Of a stretch of DNA of 64,000 bases, positions 6,446 through 25,425 are shown one piece after another. The notes beneath the pieces were generated by a model. The model was given only the letters and a program-made list of their open reading frames with translations. It was not told the origin of the DNA and ran no database searches. The first letter of the stretch is position 1; each line of letters starts with the position of its first letter. The DNA comes from a virus (taxonomy: Duplodnaviria; Caudoviricetes). The stretch covers positions 1 through 64,000 of the IMG/VR virus record IMGVR_UViG_3300021255_003058; one strand, 5' to 3'. Position numbers and translations under genes: made by a program.

Positions 6446-6556
6446 AATTATTTAATTTTTATTTATTATTGAAAATTTGCAATTTTCAAATTGCAATAAT
6501 ATTTAATGGTTTGCCTCCACCAAAAGGAGTTTTGCTTAGGAACTTTAACCAAATCG

Positions 6557-6627
6557 TAGTCCCAGTAGGACTCGAACCCACCTCAGCTGGTTTAGAAGCA
6601 GCGGCACAACCTCTGTACCATGGGACC
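6557..6627 (-). tRNA. tRNA-Sup(CUA), amber suppressor
   Basis: Cloverleaf; anticodon arm GCTGC-TTCTAAA-CCAGC, loop centre CTA; same C31.C39 mismatch as tRNA-Thr at 8304. Confidence 0.75.
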
Positions 6628-7936: not shown

Positions 7937-8075
7937 ATATCAAGGAACGTTCGACAAAAGTTCATAGAGTTGGATTCGAACCAACGACCTCCAGTTTTCA
8001 AGGCTGGTGTTCTACCACTGAACTACCCTTTCAAATTATTGGGAAAGAAGTAACTCTTATCTACACCATTGACAT
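7937..8075 (-). tRNA. Circularly permuted tRNA (anticodon TGA) flanked by split intron-like element
   Basis: Order: element 3' half, (C)TTTCCCA, spacer, GAAAGGG..D..anticodon..T arm, element 5' half. Confidence 0.7.
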
Positions 8076-8759: not shown

Positions 8760-8924
8760 TTGCCACTGCAGGACTCGAACCTGCGACCCCGAGCTTATCA
8801 GGCTGAAGTAACTCTTATCTTCAACAATAATATCATTCATATGTTTACATATTATAATTAATAATATTACGTAACTATCGACAAAGTAAACGTTACGTGC
8901 TCTATCCAACTGAGCTAAATGGCA
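8760..8924 (-). tRNA. tRNA-Ile(GAT) with 91-nt intron (8805-8895) in anticodon stem
   Basis: Removing the insert restores the stem CG|AGC/GCTCG and a full cloverleaf. Confidence 0.85.
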
Positions 8925-9161: not shown

Positions 9162-9296
9162 CGGGGACGATTGGAGTCGAACCAATTTTTGATTATTTGA
9201 CAGATAATTGCATTGAAGTAACTCACACTCTACACTATCATTATATTAATGAAGAAAAACGAATGAAGTTTTATACTACCGTTTTGCTACATCCCC
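9162..9296 (-). tRNA. tRNA-Asp(GTC) with about 63-nt intron (9215-9277) in D loop
   Basis: Cloverleaf restored after removing insert ending GAGTTACTTC. Confidence 0.8.
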
Positions 9297-9303
9297 ATAA
9301 TTG

Positions 9304-9439
9304 CTGGAGGGGTTGGATTCGAACCAACACTCTTTTGTTTATCAGACAAATACATTAACCTTTGAAGTAACTCACATTCTACACTACCTTCTGGAGAACC
9401 ACAAACGAAGTTTTAAATCTTTTTTTATGTTACCCTCCA
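9304..9439 (-). tRNA. tRNA-Ile(GAT) with about 63-nt intron (9364-9426) in D loop
   Basis: Cloverleaf restored after removing insert ending GAGTTACTTC. Confidence 0.8.
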
Positions 9440-9979: not shown

Positions 9980-10591
9980 TTATGTATTTAAAAATTCTTT
10001 TATTTGATTAATCAAATTTTCTTTATCATTATTTGACATTTTTTTATATTCAGACCAACGTATTCTAATTCCTTCCCAACCTTTTGTTTTTAAATATTCT
10101 GTTCTTTCAATATCATGTTTAATCATATAATCTGAATAATGTTGTTCACCATCAATTTCTACATATTTCATTAAATTTTCATTATAAAAATCTAATTCAT
10201 ATCTATCAATTTGTTTATGATATTGTAATGGAATATTTTCTTTAACAAACAATTCTTCAAAATATTTTTCTGGATAACTTTGTTTAGAAGAATGATTAAT
10301 TATAAATCCAACTTTATTTGGATGCTCGTTTAAATATTTTTTTCTTGAATTTGATATTTTATTTTTTACTTCATCAGTATGATGTTTTCCTTTAAATGTT
10401 TCTCCGCATTTTTTTCTTGTTTCATCAGAAACAATAATTTCTCTACCTTCTTCTTTAGCTTTTGTAAATTGATTACTATTTTTTGAACGTAATAAATATA
10501 CTGGAGTTAATTTATTAGGATTTTTTGAACATCTCATTTCATGTTGAATTAAATGTTTACATTCCTTTCCACAATATTTACAATTAAACAT
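9980..10591 (-). CDS. Free-standing homing endonuclease-like protein (Zn finger, NUMOD3, DUF559/Vsr-like nuclease)
   Basis: CKYCGKEC, KGKHHTDEVKNKIS, YELDF..VEIDGEQH; start moved to MFNCKYC. Confidence 0.75.
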   Translation of the reverse strand: MFNCKYCGKECKHLIQHEMRCSKNPNKLTPVYLLRSKNSNQFTKAKEEGREIIVSDETRKKCGETFKGKHHTDEVKNKISNSRKKYLNEHPNKVGFIINHSSKQSYPEKYFEELFVKENIPLQYHKQIDRYELDFYNENLMKYVEIDGEQHYSDYMIKHDIERTEYLKTKGWEGIRIRWSEYKKMSNNDKENLINQIKEFLNT

Positions 10592-10609
10592 ATATTCAAA
10601 ATATTTTTG

Positions 10610-10680
10610 TGACCCCACTGGGAATCGGACCCAGGTCACGTGATTAAAAGTCACGGGCTTTACCACTAAGCTATGAGGTC
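10610..10680 (-). tRNA. tRNA-Lys(TTT)
   Basis: Cloverleaf, loop CTTTTAA. Confidence 0.9.
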
Positions 10681-20417: not shown

Positions 20418-20551
20418 TAGGGGAGGTTGGACTCGAACCAACATAATCTTTAACCAAAATAAAGTGTGTAAACCTGAAGTAACTCTAATCTACAGCATTC
20501 ATTAAGAAGCAACAGCGAATAAAGTCAATAAATTAATTTCACCACTCCCCT
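20418..20551 (-). tRNA. tRNA-Gln(TTG) with about 61-nt intron (20476-20536) in D loop
   Basis: Cloverleaf restored after removing insert ending GAGTTACTTC. Confidence 0.8.
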
Positions 20552-20553
20552 AG

Positions 20554-20627
20554 TAGCCCCCACGGGATTCGAACCCGTTATTCCGGCTTGAGAGACCGAC
20601 GACTTAAACCAATCTGTCCCGAGGGCC
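20554..20627 (-). tRNA. tRNA-Glu(CTC)
   Basis: Cloverleaf. Confidence 0.85.
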
Positions 20628-20634
20628 ATCAAAT

Positions 20635-20777
20635 AATTCCTGTAACATGCTTGAAAAGTGTTTTTATGGACTCGAACCATCACCTCGGGCTTTGCAGGCC
20701 CGCGCTCTAACCACTTAAGCTAAAAATCCAAAGTTTCTGGTGGATTAAGAAGTAACTCTTCAATTCAACAAGGAATT
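20635..20777 (-). tRNA. Circularly permuted tRNA-Cys(GCA) flanked by split intron-like element
   Basis: Acceptor 3' strand with CCA (TTAATCC-A-CCA, 20738-20748) lies upstream of the body GGATTTT..T arm (20666-20729). Confidence 0.8.
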
Positions 20778-20881
20778 TGGGTGGAGGTATCTTATCACTA
20801 TCAGATATCCGATTGTTTTTCTTTGCAAGATATAATTATAAGTACTGTTTAACTAGTCCTGCGCAAGTGAACCTCCATGTG

Positions 20882-22428: not shown

Positions 22429-23370
22429 TTATAAACTTGTATTATTATAATAAATTAAAAACTTATTAATCTTTTCTTCCATTAATTGTTTACCATGTTC
22501 TGAATTAATTTCATTCCATGGTATTCTATAAACTTCTATTCCTTTAGATTTTATGAATTCATCTCTGATTTTATCAGATTCTTTTCGCTCTTTATATAAA
22601 TGTTGTTTACCATCTATCTCTAAATCAATCTTTCTATCATTTATTTCAATATAAAAATCTAAAAAATATCTTTCACCACTTCCTTTGTTACCATATTCTA
22701 ATACATATTCACGTACATATTGAATATTGTTATTATCTAAAACTTGTTTCCAAAATTTTTCTGCATAACTTATAATATTACGAGATTTCCAACCTTGAAA
22801 TGTTCCATTTTGAATTTCTTTTTTTCTTTGTAATGAAGATTGTTTTGATATTGATTTTTGTCTACATTCATCAGAACAATATTTTTGAAATTTATTACTT
22901 TCAAATTCTTTATTACAATATTTACATATACATTTTCGAACACCATAAACATATTCTCCATATTGGTTAGCTAATTTATATTTATGTTGTTTAATACCTT
23001 TTAAAAATGTATTAGATATTTTTCTTTTTGTTTCTTCTGTTCGTTTACCTTTTTTCTTATTTCCTAATGCTGAACCACAAGATTGATTACAACATTTTGC
23101 AAATCTTTTTTTAAATGGTAATTTCTTTCCACAATATTCACAATATTTAGGATTTAAATCATAATCTCGTTTTTGAATTTCTAGCCAATGATTAGATAAA
23201 TTCTTTTTAGAAATTTGTTCTTTAGATTCAATTCCTATTTGTGAAAAATACATAAGAATATCTTTATCTATGTATCCTCCATTTTGATTAGTGCGAATAT
23301 TTAGTTTTTTACAAATTTCTGATTTTGACTTAGAATAATCATAAATATTTTGAATTTCTTCTTTAGTCAT
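22429..23370 (-). CDS. Free-standing homing endonuclease-like protein (Zn fingers, DUF559/Vsr-like nuclease)
   Basis: CxxC motifs; YFLDF..LEIDGKQH..RIPW. Confidence 0.75.
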   Translation of the reverse strand: MTKEEIQNIYDYSKSKSEICKKLNIRTNQNGGYIDKDILMYFSQIGIESKEQISKKNLSNHWLEIQKRDYDLNPKYCEYCGKKLPFKKRFAKCCNQSCGSALGNKKKGKRTEETKRKISNTFLKGIKQHKYKLANQYGEYVYGVRKCICKYCNKEFESNKFQKYCSDECRQKSISKQSSLQRKKEIQNGTFQGWKSRNIISYAEKFWKQVLDNNNIQYVREYVLEYGNKGSGERYFLDFYIEINDRKIDLEIDGKQHLYKERKESDKIRDEFIKSKGIEVYRIPWNEINSEHGKQLMEEKINKFLIYYNNTSL

Positions 23371-24066: not shown

Positions 24067-24202
24067 ATTATCGGAACAGCTATAAAAGTATTATTATGAA
24101 ACTTTCTCTCGGATTCGAACCGAGGAATCAATTCTGGAAAAATTGCATTAAACCACTTAATTAAAAAAGTAATCGAAGTAACTCTTATATACACCAGATA
24201 AT
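24067..24202 (-). tRNA. tRNA-Gly(TCC) (24100-24170) wholly enclosed by permuted intron-like element
   Basis: ATTATC-TGGTGTA-TATAAGAGT-TACTTC, tRNA, ACTTTTATA-GCTGTTCC-GATAAT. Confidence 0.75.
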
Positions 24203-25063
24203 TTATATCTTATTATTTTTCTTTATGTAAGGTTTATATATATTAAAAAAATCAATATAATATTTTTTTAATGCTCTAAATATACATTTATCAAATAATT
24301 CATTTTTTTCTTTTAAATAATTTATTAATTTTTTTGACCAACCAAATTTTGAAAAATCTATATTTGATTCTTTACATGCAGATTCTAAAATTTGTTTCTT
24401 TTTATTATTATCTTTTTCTTTTTTAATTTTTCTATTAATTTTATCAGTATACTGTTGATCTTTATATTTAGAAAAATCTTCATATAGTATTCTCCAAAAT
24501 TCTTTGCCATATTTATTTATAACATATTCTAAATAAGGTTTTATTAAAATTTCATCAATAACTTTAATATTTGGAAATTGTTTTTCCTTTTCTAAAGATT
24601 TTTTACTTTTTCGCCCTTTAATTTCAATTAAACCTTCATCTGTTATAAAATCAGGAATATAAATATGTTCTTCATTATTCCATATATATTTGAATTTTTT
24701 ATTACATCTTTCAATATATAAATTATGTTCAATATAATAAACTAAAAATGCTAATTCCCAAGTACTATCACAATGAATATTATTATACCAACCTTGTTTA
24801 CTATTACCATGTTTTTTATTAAACTTCCAATTAGTATTACCTTTCATTGATTTTGAAATTTTAATTCTTCTTTCAATTTCCTTTTGTGGATCTTTACATT
24901 TTCCACATGATATACCTTGTCTAGATTTTTTTATATGTTTTTTATATTCATCATTAATTCCATATACCCACCCTTCATTTAGGTATTTGTTAATATCATT
25001 AGGATTAACATAAATACATATATTATTTTTATTCATCCATTTATATCCTTTGCTAGTACTCAT
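24203..25063 (-). CDS. Free-standing homing endonuclease-like protein (PD-(D/E)XK)
   Basis: DSTWELAF..YIPDF..IEIKG; paralogous to 19232-20143. Confidence 0.75.
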   Translation of the reverse strand: MSTSKGYKWMNKNNICIYVNPNDINKYLNEGWVYGINDEYKKHIKKSRQGISCGKCKDPQKEIERRIKISKSMKGNTNWKFNKKHGNSKQGWYNNIHCDSTWELAFLVYYIEHNLYIERCNKKFKYIWNNEEHIYIPDFITDEGLIEIKGRKSKKSLEKEKQFPNIKVIDEILIKPYLEYVINKYGKEFWRILYEDFSKYKDQQYTDKINRKIKKEKDNNKKKQILESACKESNIDFSKFGWSKKLINYLKEKNELFDKCIFRALKKYYIDFFNIYKPYIKKNNKI

Positions 25064-25140
25064 ATATTAATATAGAAATATTTATAATTAAAAATAAACA
25101 TTTTTTATTAAATCAGATTACTACCTTAATAATATTTATG

Positions 25141-25225
25141 ACTCCGGTGTTGGATTCGAACCAACGCGAGGTTACCCTAATGGATTTGCAGTCCATCCCA
25201 ATCGACCAGACTCTAGCAACCGGAG
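25141..25225 (-). tRNA. tRNA-Cys(GCA) with long variable arm
   Basis: Cloverleaf, U73. Confidence 0.85.
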
Positions 25226-25231
25226 ATTAAA

Positions 25232-25395
25232 ATTTACGGAATAATCGAATAAAGAATAATTATAAAAGGACCAGCGCGTTTACCAGTTTCACCACCGCGG
25301 TACATAATGTACATGGGCCGGACTAGAACCGACAAGGAACTTACTTCCACCGGTTTTACAAGCTTATGAAGTAACTCTATTCTTCACCAGTAAAT
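25232..25395 (-). tRNA. Circularly permuted class-II tRNA-like gene (GTA?) split in the anticodon loop, flanked by split element
   Basis: Element 3' half, ..TTGTAAA-ACCGG-V arm-T arm-acceptor, linker, acceptor-D arm-CTGGT, element 5' half; acceptor stem imperfect. Confidence 0.65.
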
Positions 25396-25425
25396 CTTTT
25401 CTTTTATTTATAAAATATAAATTTG

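What the first reader, a model, noticed from the sequence alone, without database searches (positions are those of the whole stretch)
20635..20777. Circularly permuted tRNA-Cys in a natural permuted intron-exon arrangement
Seen: element half B, then TTAATCC-A-CCA (acceptor 3' strand with CCA), an 8-nt spacer, the body from GGATTTT through the D, GCA anticodon and T arms, then element half A. Inference: back-splicing would join the T arm to the acceptor 3' strand and give a circle that end-processing opens into a tRNA. Established: permuted tRNA genes are known from some algae and archaea, where they depend on BHB splicing. I do not know of a phage example. The last two acceptor pairs would be mismatched and the junction is uncertain by 1 nt.
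Basis: partly seen in the sequence, partly recalled or inferred. Interest (0 to 1): 0.92.

Follow-up and report, generated by a model that had tools for sequence, protein, structure and literature searches.

The report
Phage Y RNA mimicking cysteine tRNA
The back-to-front cysteine tRNA is really in the sequence, but the two flanking "intron halves" are the paired stem of a Y RNA, a small RNA that docks onto the Ro60 protein, so this is most likely an unspliced tRNA look-alike and not a tRNA gene that needs back-splicing.

Summary
Observation confirmed. On the minus strand of 20635-20777, half B of a recurrent element is followed by UUACUU-C, UUAAUCC-A-CCA, an 8-nt spacer, tRNA positions 1-64 with a GCA anticodon, a 7-nt A-rich linker and half A. 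At least 12 independent contigs carry the same arrangement, so it is not an assembly artefact. In a fixed register its chance probability is about 7e-6.

The permuted order is real, and the contiguous reading by ARAGORN and Infernal is the weaker one. The flanking element, however, is not an intron. It is a covarying two-strand stem that lies in tandem beside Ro60 (TROVE plus vWA) genes. That holds in 19 of 31 phage contigs searched, in all seven contigs at least 90% complete, and in bacterial MAGs. Relatives with a capped tRNA-like cargo score as YrlA (Rfam RF02553), but below that family's threshold.

Best reading (0.68): a YrlA-like Y RNA whose tRNA-like domain is a whole tRNA-Cys look-alike joined to the Ro60 stem at the T-stem/acceptor junction. 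RNase P probably opens the cap loop that starts N-CCA, as in Mycobacterium smegmatis YrlA. Splicing into a working tRNA remains possible (about 0.1). No RNA data could be obtained, and this phage fragment encodes no Ro60.

The scan has met handle-plus-tRNA-mimic RNAs before on other DNA.

The parts
20771..20777 (-). P1 5' strand (AAUUCCU), the outer helix of the Y-type stem
   Evidence: Pairs with 20635-20641. Recovered in both the MFE and the centroid fold.
20764..20770 (-). Bulged U, the 2-bp P1a strand (GU) and the loop strand UGAA. This is the motif R-N-U-G-W-A, related to the YrlA motif GNCGAAN0-1G.
   Evidence: P1a covaries across 57 distinct cores: GU/AC 23, GG/CC 16, AG/CU 5, GC/GC 1. 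Motif census. YrlA motif from Chen 2014.
20756..20763 (-). P2 5' strand (UUGAAGAG)
   Evidence: Forms 8 bp with 20651-20658. Copies show compensatory changes.
20749..20755 (-). Conserved single-stranded UUACUU plus C, which can pair with G49 to complete the T stem
   Evidence: Invariant in almost all copies.
20738..20748 (-). 3' acceptor strand UUAAUCC, then N73 (A), then CCA
   Evidence: Five Watson-Crick pairs with G1-U5. Invariant in 11 orthologs except N73, which is A here and G elsewhere.
20730..20737 (-). 8-nt remainder of the cap loop (GAAACUUU)
   Evidence: Invariant in orthologs. RNase P would cut at its 3' side, before G1.
20666..20729 (-). tRNA-like body, positions 1-64: 5' acceptor strand, D arm, GCA anticodon arm, T arm up to CCAU
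   Evidence: ARAGORN calls tRNA-Cys(gca) at 20657-20729. Rfam tRNA 46.8 bits.
20659..20665 (-). Variable junction linker (AAAAACA). The 'contiguous' reading takes its last six bases (20659-20664) plus the first base of P2 (C, 20658) as a 3' acceptor strand.
   Evidence: Three forms among orthologs, AAA followed by AACA, UAUA or CAACA, including an indel.
20642..20658 (-). P2 3' strand CUUUUCAA, loop strand GCAUGUU and P1a strand AC
20635..20641 (-). P1 3' strand (AGGAAUU). tRNA-Glu starts 7 nt further on, at 20627.

Best explanation
The locus encodes a Y-RNA-like small RNA of the YrlA kind, not a tRNA gene that must be spliced. It is transcribed with the minus-strand tRNA array and is probably released when the neighbouring tRNAs are processed. 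Its two ends pair into a conserved stem: P1, a bulged U, the 2-bp P1a, a 4/7 internal loop and the 8-bp P2. In related phages and bacteria this stem is the signature of RNAs encoded beside Ro60, so it most likely binds Ro60, here from the host or from a part of the genome not held. The stem carries a nearly complete tRNA-Cys look-alike, attached at the T-stem/acceptor junction (about position 64/65). The upstream strand UUAAUCC closes the acceptor helix, and a 12-nt cap loop begins with N-CCA. By analogy with M. smegmatis YrlA, RNase P may cut before G1 and exonucleases may trim back to CCA. That would leave a two-piece RNA with a tRNA-like CCA end, held together by the stem. Shown: the sequence, the structure, covariation, conservation among orthologs and the genomic link of the stem to Ro60. 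Inferred: Ro60 binding, RNase P opening, absence of splicing and any downstream role such as tethering or decoying tRNA-binding proteins.
For: (1) The element is a structured RNA. It occurs 13 times against 0.74 expected, P2 shows compensatory changes and P1a covaries. (2) Link to Ro60. TROVE is encoded in 17 of 27 element-bearing contigs in one search, including 6 of 6 that are at least 90% complete. Two more positives came from another search, so the total is 19 of 31 and 7 of 7. (3) All 14 TROVE loci examined hold 2-7 half-B motifs on the gene's strand within 1.5 kb. For example, seven copies lie just upstream of L055:4410-5738(-), a TROVE plus vWA_Ro60 protein. (4) A bacterial MAG contig holds at least 11 tandem copies followed by two TROVE genes. 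(5) Copies with capped tRNA-like cargo hit Rfam YrlA at 28-45 bits, E 3e-7 to 0.05. (6) Chen 2014 reports that YrlA is a permuted tRNA mimic with a Ro60 stem carrying GNCGAAN0-1G. It also reports that M. smegmatis YrlA, with a 7-bp acceptor stem, is cut by RNase P and carries CCA in vivo. (7) At this locus the leader with N-CCA is conserved and the tail is variable. N73 is A or G, and the anticodon is ACA in L115, which fits a mimic better than a CysRS substrate. (8) The unspliced 150-nt RNA folds into the stem, the capped acceptor hairpin and the anticodon and T hairpins. (9) Empty copies packed exactly between tRNAs look like plain Y RNAs released by tRNA processing.
Against: No Ro60 homolog was found in this contig (44% complete), in the close relative G001 (83%), or in G004, G027 and G008. 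None was found in the complete Lak-A1 genome either. Binding would therefore need a host Ro60 or an unseen gene. The Rfam YrlA model does not match this locus. The stem joins the tRNA-like domain at 64/65, whereas in YrlA it replaces the anticodon arm. The stem motif differs from GNCGAA, mostly with U in place of C. No RNA or protein-binding data were available. The relative G001 encodes RtcB and an RNA ligase, so ligation chemistry is on hand.
Confidence: 0.68

Rival explanations
1. This is a true circularly permuted tRNA gene. The RNA is cut at both junctions next to the stem, the ends are joined (for example by the phage RtcB), and RNase P plus trimming opens the circle at the N-CCA loop to give a working tRNA. 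The Ro60-type stem would then act as the splicing handle.
For: The permuted readings give a better cloverleaf, -17.4 to -20.4 against -12.2 kcal/mol. With a cut after UUACUU, the C at 20749 completes the T stem. A sister locus (8047 here, L110 elsewhere) gives a perfect 7-bp acceptor stem across the junction and a compensatory A2-U71 to G2-C71 change. CCA is encoded only in these loci, in none of 51 ordinary tRNAs. RtcB and an RNA ligase are encoded in the close relative G001. In five-arm copies the junctions always restore canonical helices.
Against: Helix continuity across the junction is equally expected in an unspliced three-way junction. The inferred cut sites are not at a fixed distance from the conserved core. 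The flank pairs (5', 3') run 6/6, 8-9/7, 11/10 and 13-14/16 nt. The Cys tail has an indel between orthologs. Many relatives cap the acceptor stem with GAA, UUCG or GCAA loops that RNase P could hardly open. N73 is A or G, not U73. Pairs 6:67 and 7:66 are U.U. No EndA homolog, BHB motif or group I intron was found. The element's genomic partner is Ro60, and known Ro60 partners are not spliced.
Confidence: 0.1
2. This is an ordinary contiguous tRNA-Cys(GCA) at 20657-20729 that happens to sit in the loop of a Y-type stem. The stem-enclosed tRNA-Gly(UCC) at 24100-24170 shows that arrangement. RNase P and 3' processing release a normal tRNA, and the upstream UUAAUCCACCA is only a leader.
For: ARAGORN and Infernal both call it. 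This reading gives U73. A clearly contiguous tRNA-Gly lies inside the same kind of stem and shows compensatory acceptor changes in L096.
Against: The acceptor stem is only 5 of 7 pairs, with G2.A71 and A3.C70, and G49.A65 in the T stem. The 3' strand is the most variable stretch of the locus and carries an indel. C72 and U73 belong to the conserved P2 helix, so U73 comes with the stem and is not evidence of tRNA identity. Only 6 nt separate the T stem from P2. The leader match with CCA has a chance of about 7e-6.
Confidence: 0.08
3. This is a decaying or non-functional copy: a former tRNA or Y RNA rearranged by recombination or by the homing endonucleases in the array, kept only by linkage.
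For: Endonuclease-like ORFs (DUF559, NUMOD3) are scattered through the array. There are two U.U pairs. The anticodon changes from GCA to ACA in L115. The orthologs are all close relatives, so conservation has limited power.
Against: Constraint is non-uniform: 1 variable site in the 19-nt leader against 4 in the 7-nt tail. The arms, the G18G19 pair and the T loop are intact. An independent second locus has the same design and covaries.
Confidence: 0.08

Closest known systems
YrlA-type Y RNAs of bacteria and phages bound by Ro60/Rsr (Chen et al. 2014, PMC4201824; Rfam RF02553)
   Same: A stem formed by the 5' and 3' ends, with an asymmetric internal loop and a G-N-Y-G-W-A motif. A tRNA-like domain in permuted order with T arm, D arm and a capped acceptor stem. 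Genes of the same stem family lie in tandem beside Ro60. There is precedent for RNase P cutting the cap and for a CCA end.
   Different: Here the stem joins at the T-stem/acceptor junction and does not replace the anticodon arm, so a full GCA anticodon arm is kept. N-CCA is encoded. The motif has U where YrlA has C. The Rfam model does not match this locus. No Ro60 gene is present in this phage fragment or its 83%-complete relative. There are 13 stem copies inside a tRNA array of more than 50 genes.
Circularly permuted tRNA genes of Cyanidioschyzon merolae and Thermofilum pendens (from my own knowledge: Soma 2007, Chan 2011)
   Same: The 3' part lies upstream of the 5' part in one transcript, and the flanks pair with each other.
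   Different: Those flanks form a bulge-helix-bulge motif that the splicing endonuclease cuts, and a circular intermediate has been demonstrated. Here there is no BHB and no EndA, the break lies at 64/65, and the flanks form a Ro60-type stem.
'Enigmatic introns' of Lak megaphage tRNAs (Devoto et al. 2019, PMC6784885)
   Same: Related megaphages of gut Bacteroidota. Oversized tRNA genes carry inserts that Rfam does not classify, and one insert holds tRNA-like parts.
   Different: Lak-A1 has no copy of this stem motif and no TROVE gene. The published Tyr intron sequence is not obviously the same element.
Permuted intron-exon (PIE) group I arrangements
   Same: Two halves of one RNA element flank a cargo in B...A order.
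   Different: No group I intron is present. Rfam finds only tRNAs in the window. The whole element is about 45 nt.

Membership tests
YrlA / Y RNA (Ro60 partner) | Stem formed by the RNA's two ends that carries the Ro60-binding motif GNCGAAN0-1G | tested here: inconclusive
   The stem is present and covaries. The motif here is GUUGAAUUG. Family-wide it reads R-N-U-G-W-A, and only a few copies have GGCGA.
YrlA / Y RNA (Ro60 partner) | tRNA-like domain with T arm, D arm and a capped acceptor stem | tested here: met
   This locus has an anticodon arm as well.
YrlA / Y RNA (Ro60 partner) | The Ro60 stem takes the place of the anticodon arm (order: T arm, acceptor stem, D arm) | tested here: not met
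   At this locus the stem joins at positions 64/65. The feature is met, or nearly met, in relatives L034, L116, L004, L055 and L048.
YrlA / Y RNA (Ro60 partner) | Encoded next to a Ro60 (TROVE) gene | tested here: not met
   No TROVE in G000, or in G001, G004, G027 and G008. The same stem family does meet this feature in 19 phage contigs and in bacterial MAGs.
YrlA / Y RNA (Ro60 partner) | Rfam RF02553 score at or above the gathering score of 69 bits | tested here: not met
   No hit at this locus at E up to 10. Relatives score 28-45 bits.
YrlA / Y RNA (Ro60 partner) | Physical binding to Ro60 | not testable with these tools
   Needs pull-down or gel-shift experiments.
Circularly permuted tRNA gene (BHB type) | 3' part upstream of the 5' part in one transcription unit | tested here: met
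Circularly permuted tRNA gene (BHB type) | Bulge-helix-bulge motif at the junctions and a splicing endonuclease | tested here: not met
   The flanks form P1, a loop and P2, with 6-7-nt linkers. PF01974 is absent from 5 contigs.
Circularly permuted tRNA gene (BHB type) | Circular intermediate and a joined mature tRNA | not testable with these tools
Bacterial-type tRNA-Cys | Contiguous cloverleaf with a paired, conserved acceptor stem | tested here: not met
   Five of 7 pairs. The 3' strand varies and has an indel among orthologs.
Bacterial-type tRNA-Cys | U73 discriminator and GCA anticodon (CysRS identity, established knowledge) | tested here: inconclusive
   The GCA anticodon is present, but L115 has ACA. 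U73 exists only in the contiguous reading, where it is part of P2. The upstream strand gives A73 here and G73 in 10 orthologs.
Permuted group I intron (PIE) | Group I catalytic core split around the exon | tested here: not met
   No RF00028 match or any other ribozyme match.

The most novel reading that the evidence does not exclude
The Ro60-type stem is a handle for protein-assisted tRNA splicing in phages. RNAs carrying it are cut beside the stem and rejoined by the phage RtcB. In that case the five-arm genes would be intron-containing tRNAs, and the Cys locus and the 8047 locus would be the first circularly permuted tRNA genes outside archaea and algae. This would also give the long-unexplained Ro60-Y RNA-RtcB gene linkage a function.
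Probability: 0.1. Interest if true: 0.95.

Novelty: new variant of a known kind. Interest (0 to 1): 0.5.

Why it matters
Y RNAs that imitate tRNA are known, but their function in bacteria and phages is still unclear. This locus shows a form in which a whole tRNA look-alike, with its anticodon arm and an encoded CCA, hangs from the Ro60-type stem at a new attachment point. It is one of 13 such stems woven into a megaphage tRNA array that seems to lack its own Ro60 gene. That suggests the phage loads host Ro60, or another partner, with a panel of tRNA mimics, which is a testable route to what Ro60-Y RNA particles do during infection. It also gives a concrete, testable candidate explanation for oversized or 'intron-bearing' tRNA genes in gut megaphages. 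Annotators should note that ARAGORN and Infernal report these RNAs as plain tRNAs.

Tried and rejected
I therefore obtained no read evidence and did not pursue it by other means.

(2) Fixed-distance splice rule: I first derived a rule with cuts 6 nt on either side of P2. It fits L034, L004 and 8047/L110. It fails for the 8805 copy (9/7), L008 (11/10) and L110 (13-14/16), so I dropped it as a mechanism.

(3) Known ribozymes and introns: Rfam shows nothing except tRNAs at this locus. My comparisons with the hairpin ribozyme loop B, hammerhead, twister, pistol and hatchet were made from memory only and did not hold up.

(4) Contiguous ancestor of the Cys gene: the IMG/VR pattern scan found only unrelated tRNAs.

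(5) Intron-less allele of the L067-type five-arm tRNA: none found.

(6) The same stem motif in Lak-A1: none found.

(7) Literature: no paper in the held library reports permuted tRNA genes in phages. One search was badly posed and wasted.

(8) ARAGORN on circularised inserts proved too permissive to fix the junction.

(9) Genome-contig scan: most of its 120 hits are chance matches, and only a few are true copies.

Full report
**What is there.**
The window holds an array of more than 50 tRNA genes on the minus strand, from 6.5 to 26.3 kb. It comes from a 116-kb phage fragment, about 44% complete. Its DNA is about 70% identical to Prevotella Lak megaphages over short stretches.

In order:
- half B of a recurrent element;
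- UUACUU-C;
- UUAAUCC-A-CCA;
- the spacer GAAACUUU;
- tRNA positions 1-64 (GGAUUUU, D arm, GCA anticodon arm, T arm up to CCAU);
- a 7-nt A-rich linker;
- half A.

ARAGORN and Infernal call a contiguous tRNA-Cys at 20657-20729 (46.8 bits). That reading has G2.A71, A3.C70 and G49.A65 mismatches.

**Is it more than chance, or an artefact?**
- AGAGUUACUUC (one mismatch allowed) occurs 13 times, all on the minus strand, against 0.74 expected.
- Five Watson-Crick pairs between the upstream strand and G1-U5, followed in register by N-CCA, have a chance of about 7e-6 given the array's composition.
- None of the 51 ordinary tRNAs encodes CCA.
- At least 12 independent contigs carry the same locus.

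**Which strand closes the acceptor stem?**
- Among 11 orthologs the 19-nt leader is invariant except N73, which is A here and G in ten others.
- After CCAU the tail reads AAA followed by AACA, UAUA or CAACA.
- L122 has U7-to-A. This creates a pair with U66 of the upstream strand and would break a pair in the contiguous reading.
- Cloverleaf energies are -12.2 kcal/mol for the contiguous reading, against -20.4, -17.4 and -19.4 for three possible permuted junctions.
- C72 and U73 of the contiguous reading are simply the first bases of the conserved P2 helix.

So the permuted pairing is real and the contiguous tRNA is the weaker reading.

**A sister locus.**
A second locus has the same design: about 7937-8075 here and L110 elsewhere. 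There the upstream strand covaries with the 5' acceptor strand (A2-U71 to G2-C71). L110 reads CUUCC-G-CCA.

**What the flanking element is.**
- Structure: P1, a bulged U, the 2-bp P1a, a 4/7 internal loop (UGWA opposite GNNNGUU), the 8-bp P2 ending GAG/CUU, then single-stranded UUACUU.
- P2 shows compensatory changes between copies.
- P1a covaries in 57 distinct cores: GU/AC 23, GG/CC 16, AG/CU 5, GC/GC 1.
- The module occurs in two connectivities.
  - In one it is a closed hairpin inside tRNA genes, in the D loop or in the anticodon stem.
  - In the other it is an open stem that encloses nothing much, a normal tRNA-Gly, or tRNA parts in permuted order.

I first followed the intron idea. The inferred junctions do restore canonical helices. 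But they lie at variable distances from the core (6/6, 8-9/7, 11/10, 13-14/16 nt). Many permuted relatives also cap the acceptor stem with GAA, UUCG or GCAA loops. That is hard to reconcile with a ruler-type endonuclease or ribozyme, or with RNase P reopening a circle.

**The turning point.**
Notes from other agents of this scan pointed to Y RNAs. Four tests followed.
- Rfam YrlA (RF02553) matches the capped relatives below its gathering score but significantly. L004 scores 39.6 bits and L116 38.9. L055 scores 36.9, L034 32.7 and L048 27.9. L308 scores 45.3 and L261 38.5.
- A TROVE (Ro60) gene is present in 17 of 27 element-bearing phage contigs, and in all six that are at least 90% complete. 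Two further positives came from another search.
- All 14 TROVE loci hold 2-7 half-B motifs on the gene's strand within 1.5 kb. For example, seven copies lie directly upstream of L055:4410-5738(-), which carries TROVE and the Ro60 vWA domain.
- A bacterial MAG contig has at least 11 tandem copies followed by two TROVE genes.

The module's 5' strand (R-N-U-G-W-A, with a few GGCGA variants) resembles the published YrlA motif GNCGAAN0-1G. Chen et al. 2014 describe YrlA as follows:
- it has a Ro60-binding stem carrying a tRNA-like domain in permuted order with a capped acceptor stem;
- M. smegmatis YrlA, whose acceptor stem has 7 bp, is cut by RNase P in vivo and in vitro;
- it ends in CCA, and the two halves stay on Rsr.

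**How the locus most likely works.**
The unspliced 150-nt RNA folds into P1, P1a and P2, a hairpin between the upstream strand and G1-U5, and the anticodon and T hairpins.

I read it as a YrlA-like Y RNA. Its tRNA-like domain is a whole tRNA-Cys look-alike joined to the Ro60-type stem at about position 64/65.
- The variable A-rich tail and the conserved UUACUU are the two linkers of a three-way junction.
- The cap loop A-CCA-GAAACUUU is a likely RNase P and trimming site.
- N73 = A/G, the ACA anticodon in L115 and the two U.U pairs next to the junction suit a mimic better than a CysRS substrate.
- Empty copies packed exactly between tRNAs would be released as plain Y RNAs by tRNA processing.

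**What speaks against it, and what remains open.**
- No Ro60 homolog is found in this fragment, in the 83%-complete relative G001, in G004, G027 or G008, or in the complete Lak-A1 genome. A host Ro60 or an unseen gene would therefore be needed. Bacteroides thetaiotaomicron scores positive in the control set.
- The YrlA model does not match this locus.
- The attachment point differs from YrlA.
- G001 encodes RtcB and an RNA ligase, so a cut-and-ligate pathway cannot be excluded. I give it about 0.1.
- No EndA, BHB motif or group I intron is present.
- Read evidence could not be obtained.

**Verdict.**
The permuted order is real. The permuted intron-exon and back-splicing interpretation is not supported.

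This is a new variant of a known kind: a Y RNA with a tRNA-like domain. It is of moderate interest in itself. The wider pattern is more interesting: 13 Ro60-type stems woven into a megaphage tRNA array, and five-arm, capped and permuted tRNA mimics across many phages.

The scan has met comparable handle-plus-tRNA-mimic RNAs on other DNA before, with different handles.

Noticed in passing
window 7937-8075 (-): Second locus of the same design. UUACUU-C-UUUC-CCA-AUAAUUU is followed by GAAAGGG and a class-I tRNA body with a UGA anticodon. The contiguous acceptor stem fails (Rfam matches only model positions 6-65). The upstream strand gives 7 of 7 pairs. The ortholog in L110 has a compensatory G2-C71 change and reads G-CCA.
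   Followed up: partly
window 24090-24210 (-): The same stem encloses an intact contiguous tRNA-Gly(UCC) at 24100-24170. The ortholog in L096 has three compensatory acceptor-stem changes, so a normal tRNA can also be the cargo.
   Followed up: partly
window 25255-25400 (-): The stem encloses a 113-nt insert that looks like a class-II tRNA in permuted order: T arm and 3' acceptor strand first, then 5' acceptor strand and D arm. An ortholog lies in L006. The junction was not resolved.
   Followed up: partly
window 8760-8924, 9162-9439, 20418-20551 (-): tRNA-Ile, tRNA-Asp, a second tRNA-Ile and tRNA-Gln genes carry the same module as a closed hairpin in the anticodon stem or the D loop ('five-arm' tRNAs). 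All have intact paralogs in the array.
   Followed up: partly
window 20779-20880 (-): Directly upstream of P1, a 7-bp long-range stem UGGAGGU/ACCUCCA encloses about 80 nt and is followed by C-CCA. It resembles an acceptor stem with an encoded CCA, but nothing inside is recognisable as tRNA. It is conserved in L119.
   Followed up: no
window 6556-6627 (-): A tRNA with a CUA anticodon (ARAGORN labels it 'Pyl') is a TAG suppressor. It suggests TAG recoding, as in Lak phages.
   Followed up: no
window 9980-10666, 22429-23370, 24203-25063 (-): ORFs inside the tRNA array carry DUF559 (Vsr-like nuclease) and NUMOD3 motifs. They are likely free-standing homing endonucleases.
   Followed up: partly
window 25140-25225 (-): A tRNA with a GCA anticodon, U73 and a long variable arm (86 nt). 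This body type is unusual for tRNA-Cys.
   Followed up: no
L210:7993-9309 and L210:14695-15357 (contig G001, a close relative): The relative phage encodes RtcB (184 bits) and an RNA ligase of family PF09414 about 5 kb apart. It has no TROVE gene in 236 kb.
   Followed up: partly
L277:395-2400 (+) (Candidatus Angelobacter MAG contig): At least 11 tandem copies of the same stem (CGGUGGUGAAGA...GAGUUACUUC ... GUUCCCCG) carry varied cargo. Two TROVE genes follow on the same contig.
   Followed up: partly
half B of the module, e.g. window 20749-20770 (-): From memory only: the 5' strand (GGUGAAG ... GAGUUACUUC) resembles the 5' region of human Y1 RNA (…CCGAAGGUAGUGAGUUAUCUC). The 3' strand CUUGUUCC resembles CUUGAC of Y RNAs. 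This is an untested lead for deep homology of the stem.
   Followed up: no
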